Source: a virus. From it: DNA of 64,000 bases. This document shows positions 8,000 through 12,335 of the stretch, in pieces (within the stretch, counting starts at the first letter, position 1; every line of letters begins with the position of its first letter). Position numbers and translations under genes: made by a program. Under the pieces are notes generated by a model that ran no database searches, was not told the origin of the DNA, and saw only the letters and a list, made by a program, of their open reading frames with translations. Location: IMG/VR virus record IMGVR_UViG_3300030012_001572, positions 1 to 64,000 of that record, one strand, 5' to 3'.

Positions 8000-8040
8000 A
8001 TCATATGGTTGTAAATTGCTTTGCAATTAAGACCCTATAT
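8000..8040 (+). repeat. Array element S1 (partial, lacks CAAAG arm) plus TATA-like box
   Basis: CATATGGTTGTAAATTGC-TTT-GCAATTAAGACC-CTATAT. Confidence 0.85.
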
Positions 8041-8071
8041 GCCGCAATCAGCCCGTTGTTGAAGTGATACT

Positions 8072-8791
8072 ATGTCTATACAATATGTAAGAACAATGAA
8101 GATTAATTACGGAGATAAAATGAACGATTTGGACTTTAACAAACTAAATGGTGCTTTGGCTGAAAAAGGTGTCTATTTGATTGACTCTTTTAGCCGTGTT
8201 GATACCGATAATTACGGTTATGTCCATGTTGAAGATAACACTACTGTTTATGGAATTGTTATTGAAGATGAAGTTCAATTTACTGTTGATTATGAATTTG
8301 ATGCAAAAATAATTACTGATGGTCTTTACAACCTTCACAAAGATTGCCATTACAATGAAATTAATACTACTGTTAAAACCCAAAAGTGGGCTGAGCCTGA
8401 AGGAAACCAATTACAATTTACTATGCCTCTTGATGGTGAAGTTCAAAATTTTGACTGTTGGGGTAATAACCACATTCTTTATGAAAATGGTGCAAAAATG
8501 TATGCTTTCCTTGACAATGATTATACTGGAATGGTTTTGCGTTTCCGTGTTGTTTGGGAGCAAGAGAATGTTCAGCGAAAAGAAGCCATTGAAGATGCTA
8601 TGGTTCAAACCGTTCTAAATGACATGGGTAGAATACAAAAAGCCGTCGAAAGCCGCCTTAAACTCAAAAAGTTTGGATATAATGTTGAAGAAGTCGGAAT
8701 TGATTGTCATTTCGATGCTAAGACCGAATCAAGGTCAGAATGCGCTCCAGACATCATTAAGCAAGTTAGGGAGGCAAGAAAGGGTAATTAA
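8072..8791 (+). CDS. Hypothetical protein (cassette 1)
   Basis: 239 aa ORF; alternative start ATG 8120 after GGAG. Confidence 0.85.
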   Translation: MSIQYVRTMKINYGDKMNDLDFNKLNGALAEKGVYLIDSFSRVDTDNYGYVHVEDNTTVYGIVIEDEVQFTVDYEFDAKIITDGLYNLHKDCHYNEINTTVKTQKWAEPEGNQLQFTMPLDGEVQNFDCWGNNHILYENGAKMYAFLDNDYTGMVLRFRVVWEQENVQRKEAIEDAMVQTVLNDMGRIQKAVESRLKLKKFGYNVEEVGIDCHFDAKTESRSECAPDIIKQVREARKGN

Positions 8792-8810
8792 AGCCCTTAA
8801 ATCCGTAAGA

Positions 8811-8884
8811 CCCCACAGGGGGCAGGGTTATTGCAAAGCATAACCATATGGTTGTAGTTACTTTGTTATGCGAAAACCATATAT
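8811..8884 (+). repeat. GC hairpin plus array element S2
   Basis: CCCC-ACA-GGGG hairpin; CAAAG 8834, ACCATATGGT 8843, CTTTG 8861, AACC-ATATAT 8875. Confidence 0.9.
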
Positions 8885-8907
8885 TTCATTGTTCATGTAT
8901 TACCGTT

Positions 8908-9268
8908 GGAAGTCATGAGCCAACAGGGATTGACTGAATACCCTCATGGTCGGGGGTAAAGTGCTTGTTTTCGTGTGGTGCGACATATGAACACCTAATG
9001 CCCGTATGGGTGAGGGTTTTCCTCTATGAAAGTGATTAAGGCTCAAAAGGCGCATTCTTACCAAGAATGTTCATAAGCAAGGCAGATAGGCTCTTAAGAC
9101 ATAAGAGCGACCATAAGTGAGTGCGACCCAATCGCATCTATCTTAGTGATACCCAATTCACTATCCCACCCTTTTACTCCATTTATGCCCTTAAGCGAAG
9201 AGAAAGCGATGATAGAGGCTGAAAAAGGCACATATGTATAAAAATATCAATTACAATCAGATACTTCC
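8908..9268 (+). ncRNA. Putative ~360 nt structured non-coding RNA (cassette 2), family unknown
   Basis: No ORF of 60 aa or more; starts ~25 nt after the TATA-like box; ends pair (GGAAGT/ACTTCC); many nested helices, several with G-U pairs; followed by the usual GC hairpin. Confidence 0.7.
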
Positions 9269-9272
9269 CTGT

Positions 9273-9342
9273 GCCCCCTTTTGGGGTTTAATGCAAAGCA
9301 ACACCATATGGTTTTAGAATCTTTGATGATAAAACCCTATAT
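9273..9342 (+). repeat. GC hairpin plus array element S3
   Basis: CCCC-TTTT-GGGG; CAAAG 9294, ACCATATGGT 9303, CTTTG 9321, AAAACC-CTATAT 9331. Confidence 0.9.
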
Positions 9343-9362
9343 CTCACCAATTACCGTTTATC

Positions 9363-9641
9363 ATGTGCAAAGATTGTGTAAGAGCATTGAATACTATTAG
9401 CAAAGGAATGTCCGAGTTTCTCCGAGATGGTTTTGAAAACGCTATTGTGCGAGATATGTCTCCAGAAATGAATGATGAAGAAGGAATGTTCCATTTGTTC
9501 ATTTATGAATTAGTCGCAGAAACAGCGAAGCATGTCATTGATTTGACCGTTATGGAGGAATTGACTACTCAATTAATGGATAATCTCATGGAGGCCGCTA
9601 TTGATTCCAAACTACGCAGATTCCAAGATAAGCATGCTTGA
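9363..9641 (+). CDS. Hypothetical protein (cassette 3, probably leaderless)
   Basis: 92 aa; ATG ~25 nt after the TATA-like box, no RBS. Confidence 0.8.
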   Translation: MCKDCVRALNTISKGMSEFLRDGFENAIVRDMSPEMNDEEGMFHLFIYELVAETAKHVIDLTVMEELTTQLMDNLMEAAIDSKLRRFQDKHA

Positions 9642-9642
9642 A

Positions 9643-9740
9643 TCCCTTTGGCGAGGGTTTTTCCCTCATTTTCCCCTCGCCATCGGGTTATCAAAGCAAA
9701 CCATATGGTTGTAAATACTTTGGATTTACAACCTTATGAA
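9643..9740 (+). repeat. GC hairpin plus array element S4
   Basis: GGCGAGGG...CCCTCGCC hairpin; CAAAG 9692, ACCATATGGT 9700, stem GGTTGTAAAT/ATTTACAACC around CTTTG 9718. Confidence 0.9.
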
Positions 9741-9806
9741 TCATTAAATCCCAATATACGCTTCAAGGGGCGAAAGACTTGAAGAACACAACAGGAGGAA
9801 TAAATT

Positions 9807-10346
9807 ATGAAGATTAAGAACTGGAACATGAATACAAGCAAGGTTCGGGCATGGGCTGAAAACCAACCCGAATCGGATAACTTACAGGCTGTCCTACTTT
9901 CTCTCACATTGGGAGATAATGCGACATCTGATGAACTAAGAAGCACTTATTGGACTGCAATTCGTTCAATTGGCAGCACTATGCCTAATTTTCCGAAGGC
10001 TCGTCGTGGGAGAGAATCAACGCTTACCGACAATCAAGAAATTGTATTGGCGACTGTGGAGGAAAAAGTAGCGGCTGCTTATGCATCAATCCCTACTGAA
10101 TACCATGACATTCTATTGTCTGTAATCGTCCCACACGGGCGAACTGGTGGAGTTTACGCCAGTATTGATGATATGGTCGCACATTACAAGAAACAAGCAC
10201 ATAACTACATTATGCAGTCATTGAAAGACGGTAGAGTGGCTTTGACTGATGAAGGCGAATTTGACCTTGATAAGTCAGGTATGCTACAAATCACCCCTCG
10301 TCCGACTAAAGACGAGGATTCCGAAGGAGGTTCGGAAGACGAGTGA
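9807..10346 (+). CDS. Hypothetical protein (cassette 4), paralog of 11389..11895
   Basis: Shares RSTYWTAIRSIGS, FPKARRGRES and PHGRTGG; GGAGGA RBS. Confidence 0.9.
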   Translation: MKIKNWNMNTSKVRAWAENQPESDNLQAVLLSLTLGDNATSDELRSTYWTAIRSIGSTMPNFPKARRGRESTLTDNQEIVLATVEEKVAAAYASIPTEYHDILLSVIVPHGRTGGVYASIDDMVAHYKKQAHNYIMQSLKDGRVALTDEGEFDLDKSGMLQITPRPTKDEDSEGGSEDE

Positions 10347-10371
10347 TTCGGCAAGGATTTCGCCCCTTGTC

Positions 10372-10440
10372 GCCCCTTGCGGGGGGTTTACACAAAGTAA
10401 AACCATATGGTAGGGCTTTGTTCTACCTTACGATATATCA
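10372..10440 (+). repeat. GC hairpin plus array element S5
   Basis: CCCC-TTGC-GGGG; CAAAG 10393, ACCATATGGT 10402, GGTAGGGC-TTT-GTTCTACC. Confidence 0.9.
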
Positions 10441-10458
10441 CCCATTTTAACGGTTATC

Positions 10459-10743
10459 ATGCGAAAGATTACAGAAGACGCAATAAGAGCATTTAGAAAC
10501 AGACAGGAATTTAAGCGAGGAAATACTGAAGTTCGGGTTTTTGGGCATCTTTGCCAACTCCGCCTTCATGGAAATGTTATCGCTGAAGATAAAGACGGTG
10601 AATTATGGATTACTTCGGCTGGTTGGGAATCAAACACTACAAAAGAGCGACTTAACGGTTTTCCGACTGTTTCAATTCATCAAAAGGATTATCAATGGTA
10701 TTTAAACGGTAATGTATGGGATGGGGAATGGATATTAATTTAA
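10459..10743 (+). CDS. Conserved phage hypothetical protein (cassette 5, probably leaderless)
   Basis: MRKI...NTEV...LHGNVIA...AGWESNTTKERLN resembles a family common in marine phages (from memory). Confidence 0.85.
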   Translation: MRKITEDAIRAFRNRQEFKRGNTEVRVFGHLCQLRLHGNVIAEDKDGELWITSAGWESNTTKERLNGFPTVSIHQKDYQWYLNGNVWDGEWILI

Positions 10744-10834
10744 GTAATACTGTGGAGAGCGTTTTTAATTGTTTTCGCTCAGGTAATAGAGCCACGCATA
10801 GGGTAAATGTGCAAATAGCCGAAATAAAAAACAA

Positions 10835-10896
10835 TTCCCGCCTTTGGGTAAAGACAAAGCAATACCATATGGTTGCGCTTTGTGCAACCTTATACA
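10835..10896 (+). repeat. Weak hairpin plus array element S6
   Basis: CAAAG 10855, ACCATATGGT 10864, GGTTGCGC-TTT-GTGCAACC, TTATAC. Confidence 0.9.
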
Positions 10897-10919
10897 TACT
10901 ACTCATTTAATCGTATATT

Positions 10920-11240
10920 ATGACCAACCAATATAATGTTGCACTTTGCGCTGGACGACACGAAATTAAGACAAATGAGGGCGTTAGTGTTCCTAATGCT
11001 ATTTATGAGCATATTCAGAATCCTATGGATTTTGATTTCTTGGAAGGTCAGGCTAGCGAGTTTGTGTATTTTTTGCAAGATAACGATGTTGAGATTCTAA
11101 ATCTTTACATTACTGGTTTAACTCCAGCATTAACTTCATTTTTGGCATTAGCGAGCGAATGGGGAGGAAAAATTACATTGTGGCACTTTGACCGTGAAGA
11201 TTTCAGTTATAAGCCTCAATACTTTCAAAACTGGATGTAA
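10920..11240 (+). CDS. Small alpha/beta protein, possible CARF/SAVED-like nucleotide-binding fold (cassette 6)
   Basis: GRH motif; LNLYITGLTPAL strand-helix; ITLWHFDRE..SYKPQ terminal strands. The ORF is secure, the fold is tentative. Confidence 0.6.
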   Translation: MTNQYNVALCAGRHEIKTNEGVSVPNAIYEHIQNPMDFDFLEGQASEFVYFLQDNDVEILNLYITGLTPALTSFLALASEWGGKITLWHFDREDFSYKPQYFQNWM

Positions 11241-11242
11241 TC

Positions 11243-11320
11243 CGCCCCTTCGGGGGTATTACCAAAGATACTACCATATGGTTGTAATCGCTTTGCGCTT
11301 GTGTAATTACAACCTTATCC
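11243..11320 (+). repeat. GC hairpin plus array element S7
   Basis: GCCCC-TTCG-GGGGT; CAAAG 11263, ACCATATGGT 11273, stem GGTTGTAAT/ATTACAACC around CTTTG 11291. Confidence 0.9.
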
Positions 11321-11388
11321 GTCATTTGGTCGGTATTAGTGCTTCGGAAGGCATTGAGGCAGATTTCCCCTTATTGGAGGTAATTATT

Positions 11389-11895
11389 ATGAATGAAAAG
11401 AATTGGATAAAAAACACAAGTGAAGTCAGTCTATGGCTTGAAAAGGAAGATAGAGGTGATAATGGCAAGGCTATTGAATTGTCTATTATGCTCGGAAACA
11501 ACAGTAATGACGACGATATGCGTTCAACCTATTGGACGGCTATTAGGTCTATTGGGAGCGTTTATGCGGATTTCCCAAAAGCCCGTCGTGGTCGAGAATC
11601 TGCTTTGCCCGACGAAGTGGAGCAAAATGCGATTTCTGTGAAGAATGCGGTTTACGCTGCCTTTGCGGGTATTTCTAACCAAGAAGTCGTTTTGGCTGCG
11701 GTTTTGCCACATGGTAGAACTGGTGGTGCTTATGCTGATATTGACGCATTGGCTACCCATTATGCTAAGCAAGCGTATAATGCGCTTGTAAAGGGCTACA
11801 AAGAAGGTCGTTGGGATGGTTCTATGAACGGTGAAATCCCTACTATGACCCCACCTGCTGTTAAATCAGCCGAAGGAGGTCAAGAGGAAGAATGA
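11389..11895 (+). CDS. Hypothetical protein (cassette 7), paralog of 9807..10346; start reassigned to ATG 11389
   Basis: GGAGGT RBS before MNEKNW, which aligns with MKIKNW of the paralog. Confidence 0.9.
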   Translation: MNEKNWIKNTSEVSLWLEKEDRGDNGKAIELSIMLGNNSNDDDMRSTYWTAIRSIGSVYADFPKARRGRESALPDEVEQNAISVKNAVYAAFAGISNQEVVLAAVLPHGRTGGAYADIDALATHYAKQAYNALVKGYKEGRWDGSMNGEIPTMTPPAVKSAEGGQEEE

Positions 11896-11913
11896 TGCGG
11901 AAATGCCTTCCGT

Positions 11914-11970
11914 CGCCCCCTTCGGGGGGTTTCCTCTACGATGGCAAAGCCAAACCATATGGTTGTTGTA
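11914..11970 (+). repeat. GC hairpin plus array element S8 (lacks the CTTTG hairpin)
   Basis: CCCCC-TTCG-GGGGG; CAAAG 11945, ACCATATGGT 11954. Confidence 0.85.
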
Positions 11971-12154
11971 ATGTATATATAGACTATATATGGTTCATTA
12001 TAGACGCTAAATGGATTATTTAGGGATGTATGACTCGGAACATAATATTTAACAGTTGCGTGATGCGTTCTATAGAAATCTATTCAAATAGCGCATATAA
12101 TTCTATTCGATGAAATAAATCTATATATATTGCAATTCATCTCAATAGACTATA

Positions 12155-12172
12155 TACAACCATATGGCTTTG
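12155..12172 (-). repeat. Inverted terminal array element S9
   Basis: TACAACCATATGGCTTTG = reverse complement CAAAGCCATATGGTTGTA. Confidence 0.75.
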
Positions 12173-12335
12173 TTTCAAATTTTTTATTTTTGTTCATTTA
12201 AATGAATAAGCATCAATTAATCAATTTTAAACCAAAAAGCATTTATTCCACTACTTTAAAACATTAATTAGTTTAGATTAAAGGTTATTCCGAGCATATT
12301 ATATGCTATGACTTCCACCCATTAAGTGATACAGT

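What the first reader, a model, noticed from the sequence alone, without database searches (positions are those of the whole stretch)
8908..9268. A ~360 nt multi-helix ncRNA occupying one cassette slot
Seen: the S2-S3 slot has no substantial ORF but keeps the same promoter spacing and 3' hairpin as the gene cassettes. Helices by eye: GGAAGT 8908/ACTTCC 9263 (closing), CATGAG 8914/CTCATG 8943, GGGGTAAAG 8953/TTTTACTCC 9172, TCGTGTG 8971/CATATGA 8984, GGGTG 9008/CACCC 9167, TATGAA 9025/TTCATA 9070, CATTCTT 9053/AAGAATG 9063, AGATAG 9084/CTATCT 9138 enclosing GCTCTTA/TAAGAGC and GTGCGA/TCGCAT, TAGTGA 9144/TCACTA 9158. They nest into a multi-junction fold with several G-U pairs. It contains CATATG, the core of the array element, twice (8984, 9231), which may be chance. 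I see no RNase P, tmRNA or group I/II signature. Inference: a new large viral RNA (ribozyme, decoy or guide).
Basis: partly seen in the sequence, partly recalled or inferred. Interest (0 to 1): 0.8.

Follow-up and report, generated by a model that had tools for sequence, protein, structure and literature searches.

The report
Enlarged manA-type RNA gene, archaeal virus
The gene-free slot holds a real gene for a folded RNA of about 385 bases: an enlarged, free-standing relative of the cyanophage "manA" RNA, carried here by a virus of ocean archaea, which argues that this RNA acts on its own and does not switch a neighbouring gene.

Summary
In detail: window 8905-9289 (+) is a conserved, structured, non-coding RNA. 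The reading "new large viral RNA" is only partly right. Its 5' 263 nt match the known manA motif (Rfam RF01745) over the whole model (48.3 bits, E 3e-11), just under Rfam's cut-off of 55.2. A model built from this RNA's relatives finds classical cyanophage manA in return.

Twenty-two distinct copies from marine viral and metagenome contigs support a 77-pair fold: 98% of cells paired and 43 pairs with compensatory changes. Five fail the covariation test, and the proposed closing helix is unproven.

What differs from classical manA:
- Arms P6, P7 and P8 are enlarged.
- A conserved ~120-nt 3' domain follows the core.
- The RNA appears to have its own archaeal-type promoter, and no fixed downstream gene.
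- The carrier is a magrovirus: capsid and portal match only archaeal viruses.

Two loop pairings covary, L3 with the P8 junction (five or more alleles) and L5 with L7. A 2026 cryo-EM preprint names contacts L3-L8' and L5-L7' among those joining manA copies into pentamers and cages. I equated its labels with these loops by counting helices. Self-assembly is therefore my best guess; it is untested, as is expression.

The scan already noted the ~590-nt long form in another magrovirus genome (e1-5915231).

The parts
8842..8853 (+). Palindrome AACCATATGGTT of the repeated cassette element. It lies 78-94 nt upstream of the conserved GGGATTGAC word in every homologue.
8874..8886 (+). A-rich stretch plus TATA-like box (AAAACCATATATT); putative archaeal BRE/TATA promoter (inferred). 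The TATA word starts at 8880.
   Evidence: In the protein cassettes the ATG lies 25 nt (9338 to 9363; also the cassette ending in ATG 10459, read by eye) or 29 nt (10891 to 10920) after the TATA start, which suggests leaderless mRNAs. The same spacing puts this RNA's start at about 8905. The spacing to P1 is 25-26 nt in relatives (sequences).
8905..9167 (+). manA-type core: P1 8904-8909/8920-8925; closing P2 8926-8929/9164-9167; P3 8933-8935/8960-8962 and 8939-8945/8952-8958; P4 8964-8970/9075-9081; P5 8971-8974/8980-8983; P9 9144-9149/9158-9163.
8984..9028 (+). Enlarged P6 arm: 8984-8987/9025-9028, 8989-8995/9015-9021 (the longer range is read by eye; the consensus fold gives 8989-8992/9017-9020), and hairpin 9000-9003/9008-9011. 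It replaces a simple hairpin of classical manA.
9032..9074 (+). Enlarged Y-shaped P7 arm: 9032-9035/9071-9074, hairpin 9041-9043/9049-9051, and tip hairpin 9052-9057/9065-9070 with the ACCA loop.
9085..9142 (+). Enlarged P8 three-way junction: 9085-9089/9138-9142, 9090-9095/9103-9108, 9121-9126/9132-9137.
8946..8951 (+). L3 loop AUGGUC, which pairs with GACCAU at 9109-9114 (the J8 strand inside P8).
   Evidence: five or more covarying alleles; covariation score 0.511 against 0.02-0.11 for slid controls
9109..9114 (+). J8 strand GACCAU, partner of L3.
8976..8979 (+). L5 loop UGGU, which pairs with ACCA at 9060-9063 (L7 tip loop).
   Evidence: G-C in 7 sequences, A-U in 14; 97.7% of cells paired
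9060..9063 (+). L7 loop ACCA, partner of L5.
9168..9289 (+). Conserved 3' domain, absent from classical manA: T1 hairpin 9187-9189/9217-9219 around AAGCGA..AGCGAUGAUAG; T2 helix 9227-9232/9270-9275 closing an A/U-rich loop with invariant UUCCCUG (9265-9271); end hairpin CCCC-UUUU-GGGG 9274-9286 followed by TTT 9287-9289 (presumed terminator).

Best explanation
Window ~8905-9289 (+) is a free-standing gene for a ~385-nt non-coding RNA of a magrovirus, a tailed virus of marine group II archaea.

Inferred: it is transcribed from its own TATA-box promoter and ends at the CCCC/GGGG hairpin plus T run.

Shown: its first 263 nt fold into the manA architecture (P1-P9), with arms P6, P7 and P8 enlarged. 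A conserved 3' domain (T1, T2) follows.

Shown: two loop pairings are kept by covariation, L3 with the P8 junction strand and L5 (UGGU) with L7 (ACCA).

Inferred: a cryo-EM preprint names L3-L8' and L5-L7' among the contacts that join neighbouring copies of classical manA into pentamers, which close into decamers or a 60-mer shell. If those labels are the loops I identify here (my mapping, by counting helices), the RNA most likely works in trans as a self-associating RNA particle or scaffold. The enlarged arms and 3' domain would be surface or adaptor elements. It would not be a cis-acting riboswitch. Its cargo or target is unknown.
For: Family: RF01745 aligns over model positions 1-192 at 48.3 bits, E 3e-11. 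Four relatives score 41.9-53.3 bits. My model R1, built from the magrovirus copies, hits classical cyanophage-type manA end to end at 21-35 bits, E 1e-6 to 3e-12.

Fold: 22 distinct sequences give 77 pairs with 98.3% of cells paired, against 39-50% for slid controls. Forty-three pairs carry compensatory changes; 0 of 500 shuffles reach the observed score. Many G-U pairs fix the strand as +.

Loop contacts: L3-J8 has covariation 0.511 against 0.02-0.11 when slid, and five of six pairs are compensated. L5-L7 is the only conserved complementary run of four or more columns in an unbiased scan of all unpaired column pairs.

Own unit: the promoter palindrome and TATA-like box lie at a fixed distance in all 33 copies examined, and the next cassette element follows at +373-380 or +534-593. 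The TATA-to-ATG spacing of 25 nt in neighbouring cassettes suggests leaderless mRNAs. Neighbouring genes differ between relatives.

Other points: no conserved ORF, and one copy per genome.

Host domain: capsid and portal proteins match only archaeal tailed viruses among 50,697 phage records. PolB is split into two ORFs, a trait reported for magrovirus group B (PMC5434244).

Assembly of manA: preprint 10.64898/2026.07.01.735769.
Against: Covariation cannot tell a contact between molecules from one within a molecule, so both loop pairings could be ordinary tertiary contacts of a monomer.

I mapped the preprint's labels L3, L5, L7 and L8 onto these loops by counting helices in the Rfam structure. 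The preprint's text gives no loop sequences and I could not see its figures.

The assemblies were made in vitro at high RNA concentration with 10 mM Mg and a 50 C step. No role in infected cells is shown for any manA RNA.

L5-L7 has only one covarying position, which may reflect a single evolutionary event.

The enlarged arms could block the classical packing.

The score is below Rfam's gathering cut-off.

One near-identical contig is binned in a flavobacterial MAG, which is weak evidence against an archaeal host.
Confidence: 0.5

Rival explanations
1. A monomeric trans-acting RNA, for example a decoy or sponge for a host or viral protein, or a binder of a small ligand. The L3-J8 and L5-L7 pairings would be intramolecular tertiary contacts that lock the fold, and the conserved single-stranded tail loop (AAUUACAAU..UUCCCUG) would be the binding site.
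For: The same fold evidence applies. Weinberg et al. drew a possible pseudoknot within the molecule. The T2 loop is about 35 nt, A/U-rich, unpaired and nearly invariant across subgroups, as expected of a recognition site.
Against: The preprint reports L5-L7' as intermolecular in both manA RNAs whose interfaces it describes, and L3-L8' in one of them. No partner was identified here.
Confidence: 0.3
2. A cis-acting riboswitch or leader, the original manA hypothesis. Ligand binding to the core would decide whether transcription stops at the 9274-9289 hairpin or reads on into the 92-aa gene at 9363.
For: Classical manA lies directly upstream of genes (L027 and L054 lie upstream of a transaldolase-like ORF). 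In several relatives the 3' half of the end hairpin can instead pair with an upstream segment, extending T2: CAUGAAA/UUUCAUG in L040 and CUGUAAA/UUUACGG in L016. That resembles a terminator/antiterminator choice.
Against: The downstream gene has its own palindrome and TATA box with the 25-nt leaderless spacing. The gene after the RNA differs between relatives (92-aa, 135-aa or 179-aa proteins). Over 100 nt of conserved extra structure separate the core from the hairpin. An expression platform built for bacteria would not be expected to work from an archaeal promoter.
Confidence: 0.12
3. No functional RNA: the helices are chance, the slot is a decayed gene, or it encodes a small protein.
For: The MFE z-score is not significant. 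Short ORFs exist on both strands.
Against: There are 43 compensated pairs in 22 sequences. Homology to a curated RNA family holds in both directions. ORFs are not conserved in strand, frame or length.
Confidence: 0.02

Closest known systems
manA RNA motif (Rfam RF01745; Weinberg et al. 2010, PMC2864571)
   Same: The whole helix set P1-P9 and its order. The conserved words GGGA-UGAC-GAAUA, GGGGUAA-GUG, the GUGGUG-type L5 loop, the ACCA L7 loop and the 3' UCCCAC. L5/L7 complementarity is present in both; classical copies also show short L3/L8 complementarity when read by eye. Both are marine and virus-borne. The covariance models hit in both directions.
   Different: 263-nt core against about 190 nt: P6, P7 and P8 are branched arms, shown as insertions of 75 and 40 nt in the Rfam alignment. 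There is an extra conserved ~120-nt 3' domain, plus a further ~180-nt module in long-form relatives. It appears to have its own promoter and end hairpin instead of sitting in a 5' UTR. The carrier is an archaeal virus, not a cyanophage or gamma-proteobacterium. It scores under Rfam's gathering cut-off, so routine annotation misses it.
manA homo-oligomers: pentamer-based decamers and a 60-mer icosahedral shell (cryo-EM preprint 10.64898/2026.07.01.735769)
   Same: The loops that I equate with the preprint's L5-L7' and L3-L8' interfaces are complementary here and covary.
   Different: Nothing is known about assembly of this enlarged form. Three peripheral arms, which the preprint says set the curvature, differ here. 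The preprint's other contacts (L8-L9' and the L6-P6' GNRA-receptor contact) have no evident counterpart.
Large ornate phage RNAs ROOL and GOLLD, and OLE. That they form RNA-only multimers is from my own knowledge and the preprint's introduction.
   Same: Several hundred nt, multi-junction, virus-borne, free-standing genes of unknown function.
   Different: No Rfam match to any of them in the window. The core is plainly manA.
Earlier notes of this scan on enlarged manA-like RNAs (e1-5915231 in another magrovirus; e1-5828129 and others in giant phages)
   Same: e1-5915231 describes the ~590-nt long form of this same RNA lineage. I found that form independently in L017, L018, L020 and others.
   Different: The window carries the short form (~385 nt), which lacks the middle module. 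The L3-J8 and L5-L7 covariation and the leaderless promoter spacing were worked out here.

Membership tests
manA RNA (RF01745) | Score at or above Rfam's gathering cut-off (55.2 bits) | tested here: not met
   48.3 bits in the window and 41.9-53.3 bits in four relatives. Not listed at the gathering threshold.
manA RNA (RF01745) | Statistically significant alignment over the whole model, in both directions | tested here: met
   Model 1-192, E 3e-11. Model R1 from the magrovirus copies hits seven classical manA copies over model 1-283, E 1e-6 to 3e-12.
manA RNA (RF01745) | Helices P1-P9 in the family's order, supported by covariation | tested here: met
   The de novo RNAalifold consensus reproduces the architecture: 77 pairs, 43 compensated, 98.3% paired.
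manA RNA (RF01745) | Conserved sequence blocks (GGGA.UGAC.GAAUA; GGGGUAA.GUG; GUGGUG-type loop; ACCA loop; UCCCAC) | tested here: met
   L5 is GUGGU or GUAGU, with L7 ACCA or ACUA to match.
manA RNA (RF01745) | Position in the 5' UTR of a protein gene (Rfam type: cis-regulatory) | tested here: not met
   An end hairpin plus a full promoter element lie between the RNA and the next ATG. Neighbouring genes vary among relatives.
manA RNA (RF01745) | Carried by bacteria or their phages (cyanophages, Photobacterium) | tested here: not met
   Portal and capsid proteins match only archaeal tailed viruses. Split PolB.
Self-assembling manA particle (preprint 2026) | Forms pentamer-based closed oligomers through loop-loop contacts between copies | not testable with these tools
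   Only the complementarity and covariation of the equivalent loops could be shown.
Riboswitch | Aptamer coupled to an expression platform that controls a consistent downstream gene | tested here: not met
   No consistent downstream gene, and the downstream gene has its own promoter. Ligand binding is not testable here.
ROOL / GOLLD / OLE / RNase P / tmRNA / group I-II introns | Match to the family's covariance model | tested here: not met
   No such match at E up to 10 in 8700-9450 or at the gathering threshold in the window.

The most novel reading that the evidence does not exclude
An archaeal virus makes an RNA-only multi-subunit particle, either pentamer-based or a closed shell, from an enlarged manA-type RNA. 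The extra arms and 3' domain would serve as docking or cargo elements. The same self-assembling RNA fold would then be in use by viruses of both bacteria and archaea, which points to a job that needs no host-specific machinery.
Probability: 0.3. Interest if true: 0.85.

Novelty: new variant of a known kind. Interest (0 to 1): 0.62.

Why it matters
manA has been an orphan "riboswitch candidate" since 2010. Here the same fold appears as a free-standing gene, apparently with its own archaeal-type promoter, in a virus whose host uses different transcription and translation signals from a cyanophage's host. That is hard to reconcile with a cis-regulatory job and fits a function carried by the RNA itself.

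The natural alleles of the L3-J8 pairing and the two L5-L7 states give ready-made compensatory mutants. With them one can test whether the in-vitro manA assemblies reflect a selected contact.

None of the papers I could search mentions non-coding RNAs in magroviruses. Because the whole lineage scores under Rfam's cut-off, standard annotation misses it.

Tried and rejected
Transcription and RNA ends remain inferred.
- blastn of the slot against 50,697 phage records found no match.
- Thermodynamic z-score: not significant on either strand, so it is not a useful discriminator here.
- MAFFT plus RNAalifold on the 3' domain failed to put the T2 strands in register. T2 therefore rests on duplex and MFE folds of single sequences, which show a helix at the same place with different sequences, not on a formal column test.
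- A pseudoknot between the GUGGUG loop and the 3' CCACC tail: read by eye, not kept in subgroups B and C. Dropped.
- A k-turn or C/D-box reading of UGAUGA / CUGA in the tail: the strands do not fit the k-turn layout and Rfam gives no hit. Dropped.
- A partner for the twin ACCCAAU loops (P8c and P9): none found.
- PolB as a host marker: equally distant from haloviruses and T4-like cyanophages, so uninformative. MCM gave only a weak hit and PCNA none.
- Four more distant relatives (G001-G004, one of them complete) have no copy by either RF01745 or R1.
- Cellular genomes: the core word occurs in three contigs and none is archaeal. One is a probable mis-binned viral contig, one a classical manA, one a chance match.

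Full report
**What is in the sequence.** The stretch 8792-9362 has no ORF of note. No ORF is conserved among homologues in strand, frame or length. A sensitive Rfam scan of 8700-9450 gave a single hit: manA RNA (RF01745) at 8905-9172 on the + strand. It covers model positions 1-192 at 48.3 bits, E 3e-11, with insertions of 75 and 40 nt. The score is below the family's gathering cut-off of 55.2, so the default scan of the window listed only two tRNAs. Folding energy is unremarkable, with z = -1.12 on + and -0.45 on -.

**Relatives.** The upstream 239-aa protein led to ten related viral contigs. Four of them carry the same RNA at 41.9-53.3 bits. In two it lies after the 239-aa gene, as in the window. 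In the other two it lies 1.5-2.8 kb before that gene. Pattern scans added more viral contigs and 21 copies of the enlarged form on marine metagenome contigs, TARA Oceans among them. In all there are 22 distinct core sequences.

Every copy has the cassette palindrome ACCATATGG 78-94 nt upstream of the conserved GGGATTGAC word. The next cassette element follows at +373-380 (short form, as in the window) or at +534-593 (long form, with an extra middle module of about 180 nt).

**Fold.** A MAFFT alignment of the 22 cores (A2) was folded by RNAalifold without reference to Rfam.
- It gave 77 pairs in 16 helices that reproduce the manA layout.
- 43 pairs keep pairing through changes on both sides.
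- On the pair counter, 98.3% of cells are paired, against 39-50% when partners are slid by 1-3 columns.
- The covariation score is 0.525 against 0.06-0.10 for slid controls, and 0 of 500 shuffles reach it.
- Frequent G-U pairs fix the strand as +.

Compared with classical manA, the hairpins P6, P7 and P8 are replaced by branched arms. Window coordinates of all helices are listed under 'parts'.

A covariance model built from A2 (R1) gave these results:
- One copy in the window's genome, at 290.6 bits.
- Nothing in four more distant relatives.
- End-to-end hits to classical ~200-nt manA RNAs that sit upstream of a transaldolase-like ORF: 21-35 bits, E 1e-6 to 3e-12.

Homology with manA therefore holds in both directions.

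Five are right: the P7 tip, the P8 base and its two hairpins, and P9. Five others are paired in only 65-85% of cells without meaningful compensation, and they clash with covarying helices. The proposed closing helix GGAAGU/ACUUCC is exact in the window's subgroup. Elsewhere it survives only by register shifts and G-U pairs, and it competes with the P1 stem. I call it unproven.

**3' domain.** Downstream of the core, about 120 nt are conserved in both the short and long forms.
- T1 is a hairpin around AAGCGA..AGCGAUGAUAG. Its closing stem changes between subgroups: GCC/GGC, GGUG/CACC, CCGCUU/AAGCGG (read by eye).
- T2 is a helix that closes a nearly invariant A/U-rich loop ending in UUCCCUG. 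It uses different sequences in different subgroups: GGCACA/UGUGCC in the window, GGAGC/GCUCC, CACUUGG/CCAAGU, GCUAUACAG/CUGUGUAGC and CAAACGGGC/GCCCUGUUUG. It appears in nearly all single-sequence folds.
- I could not get a column-accurate alignment of this domain, so it lacks a formal test.
- In some relatives the 3' half of the end hairpin can pair with an upstream segment and extend T2.

**Long-range loop pairings.** An unbiased scan of all unpaired column pairs found one conserved complementary run: L5 (UGGU, 8976-8979) with the P7 tip loop (ACCA, 9060-9063). The central pair is G-C in 7 sequences and A-U in 14.

A per-sequence search of all loop pairs then found L3 (AUGGUC, 8946-8951) against the single strand between the two inner hairpins of P8 (GACCAU, 9109-9114). 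At least five alleles occur: GGUCG/CGACC, GGACG/CGUCC, AGGCG/CGUCU, GAACG/CGUUC and UGGUG/CACCA. On fixed columns, five of six pairs are compensated and the covariation score is 0.511 against 0.02-0.11 when slid, with 0 of 500 shuffles reaching it. One sequence, L021, combines an L3 of one type with a J8 of another and is the sole clear mismatch.

**Whose virus.**
- The portal and the major capsid protein match only haloarchaeal, Methanomassiliicoccales and Methanofastidiosa tailed viruses among 50,697 phage records.
- PolB is split into two ORFs. Philosof et al. report that trait as unique to magrovirus group B, and also describe a halovirus-like head module and ~100-kb genomes (PMC5434244).
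- PolB similarity itself is uninformative.

**Promoter.** The cassette signals fit an archaeal promoter.
- A box AAAACC-TATA lies 25 nt before the ATG of the 92-aa gene (9338 to 9363).
- The 94-aa cassette, whose ATG is at 10459, shows the same spacing when counted by eye in the sequence printed.
- The spacing is 29 nt before the 106-aa gene (10891 to 10920).
- These spacings suggest leaderless mRNAs. The same spacing puts this RNA's first base at about 8905, which is where P1 and the Rfam match begin.
- This start, the promoter reading and the 3' end are inferences.

**How it probably works.**
- Weinberg et al. proposed manA as a riboswitch because it sits in 5' UTRs.
- Here that context is absent. 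The RNA appears to have its own promoter box, its neighbours differ between relatives, and the next gene has its own promoter.
- A 2026 preprint reports that manA RNAs form RNA-only pentamers that close into decamers or a 60-subunit shell. The copies are held together by contacts named L5-L7', L3-L8', L8-L9' and L6-P6' (10.64898/2026.07.01.735769).
- Counting helices in the Rfam structure, L5 is the GUGGUG loop, L7 the ACCA loop, L3 the P3 loop and L8 the P8 loop. These are the two pairings that covary here. The mapping is mine; the preprint's text gives no loop sequences.
- I therefore favour a trans-acting, self-associating RNA particle, at about 0.5.
- The main rival, at about 0.3, is a monomer in which the same pairings are tertiary contacts and the tail loop binds a partner. 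A cis read-through switch gets about 0.12.
- Covariation cannot separate the first two readings.

**Novelty.** manA is known, and this scan already noted the long form in another magrovirus (e1-5915231). In the papers I could search, no work links manA to archaeal viruses or reports non-coding RNAs in magroviruses. I rate it a new variant of a known kind.

Noticed in passing
window 8000-12200: An array of single-gene cassettes, each preceded by CAAAG-ACCATATGG-CTTTG plus an AAAACC-TATA box. Two or three cassettes have the ATG 25-29 nt after the TATA start (apparently leaderless), and two have 72-73-nt leaders with AGGAGG. It looks like an archaeal promoter with an upstream operator-like palindrome. 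This is the subject of note e1-5965714.
   Followed up: partly
L017:800-960, L018, L020:10170-10340 and other long-form loci: Long-form relatives carry an extra ~180-nt module between the manA core and the shared tail. It includes a hairpin UAUGGC..GCCAUA whose 5' strand can also pair with a downstream CCAUAG, and conserved words GAAAC.A.GCCGAAAC and AUGGAGUAGGC. No Rfam match.
   Followed up: partly
L021:607-1153 (-): This copy has an L3 loop of one subgroup (UUGGUG) but a J8 strand of another (CGUUCA), so the otherwise universal L3-J8 pairing is broken. It is possibly a recombinant.
   Followed up: no
L055 (NZ_NZTP01000027.1, 'Altibacter sp.' MAG, 14.7-kb contig): The contig carries the same cassette array and RNA, nearly identical to L019/L034. 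It is most likely a viral contig binned into a flavobacterial MAG, but it is the only hint against an archaeal host.
   Followed up: partly
L054 (Nonlabens xiamenensis strain 1Q3, NODE_6, 188 kb): An isolate assembly holds a classical manA plus a transaldolase-like ORF, identical in the compared stretch to marine contigs L027, L048 and L050. The contig size fits a T4-like cyanophage, so it may be a contaminant or a co-assembled phage.
   Followed up: no
window 8912-8917: The P1 loop contains the self-complementary word UCAUGA in subgroups A and B. In subgroup C, P1 is instead a fully paired GC hairpin. It could be a dimerisation loop; untested.
   Followed up: no
window 9127-9133 and 9150-9157: Two different hairpin loops (P8c and P9) carry the same ACCCAAU word. 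No complementary partner was found in the RNA.
   Followed up: partly
G000:C1:72263-74128 (beyond the window): Family B DNA polymerase is split into two separate ORFs (open frames of about 549 and 300 aa).
   Followed up: partly
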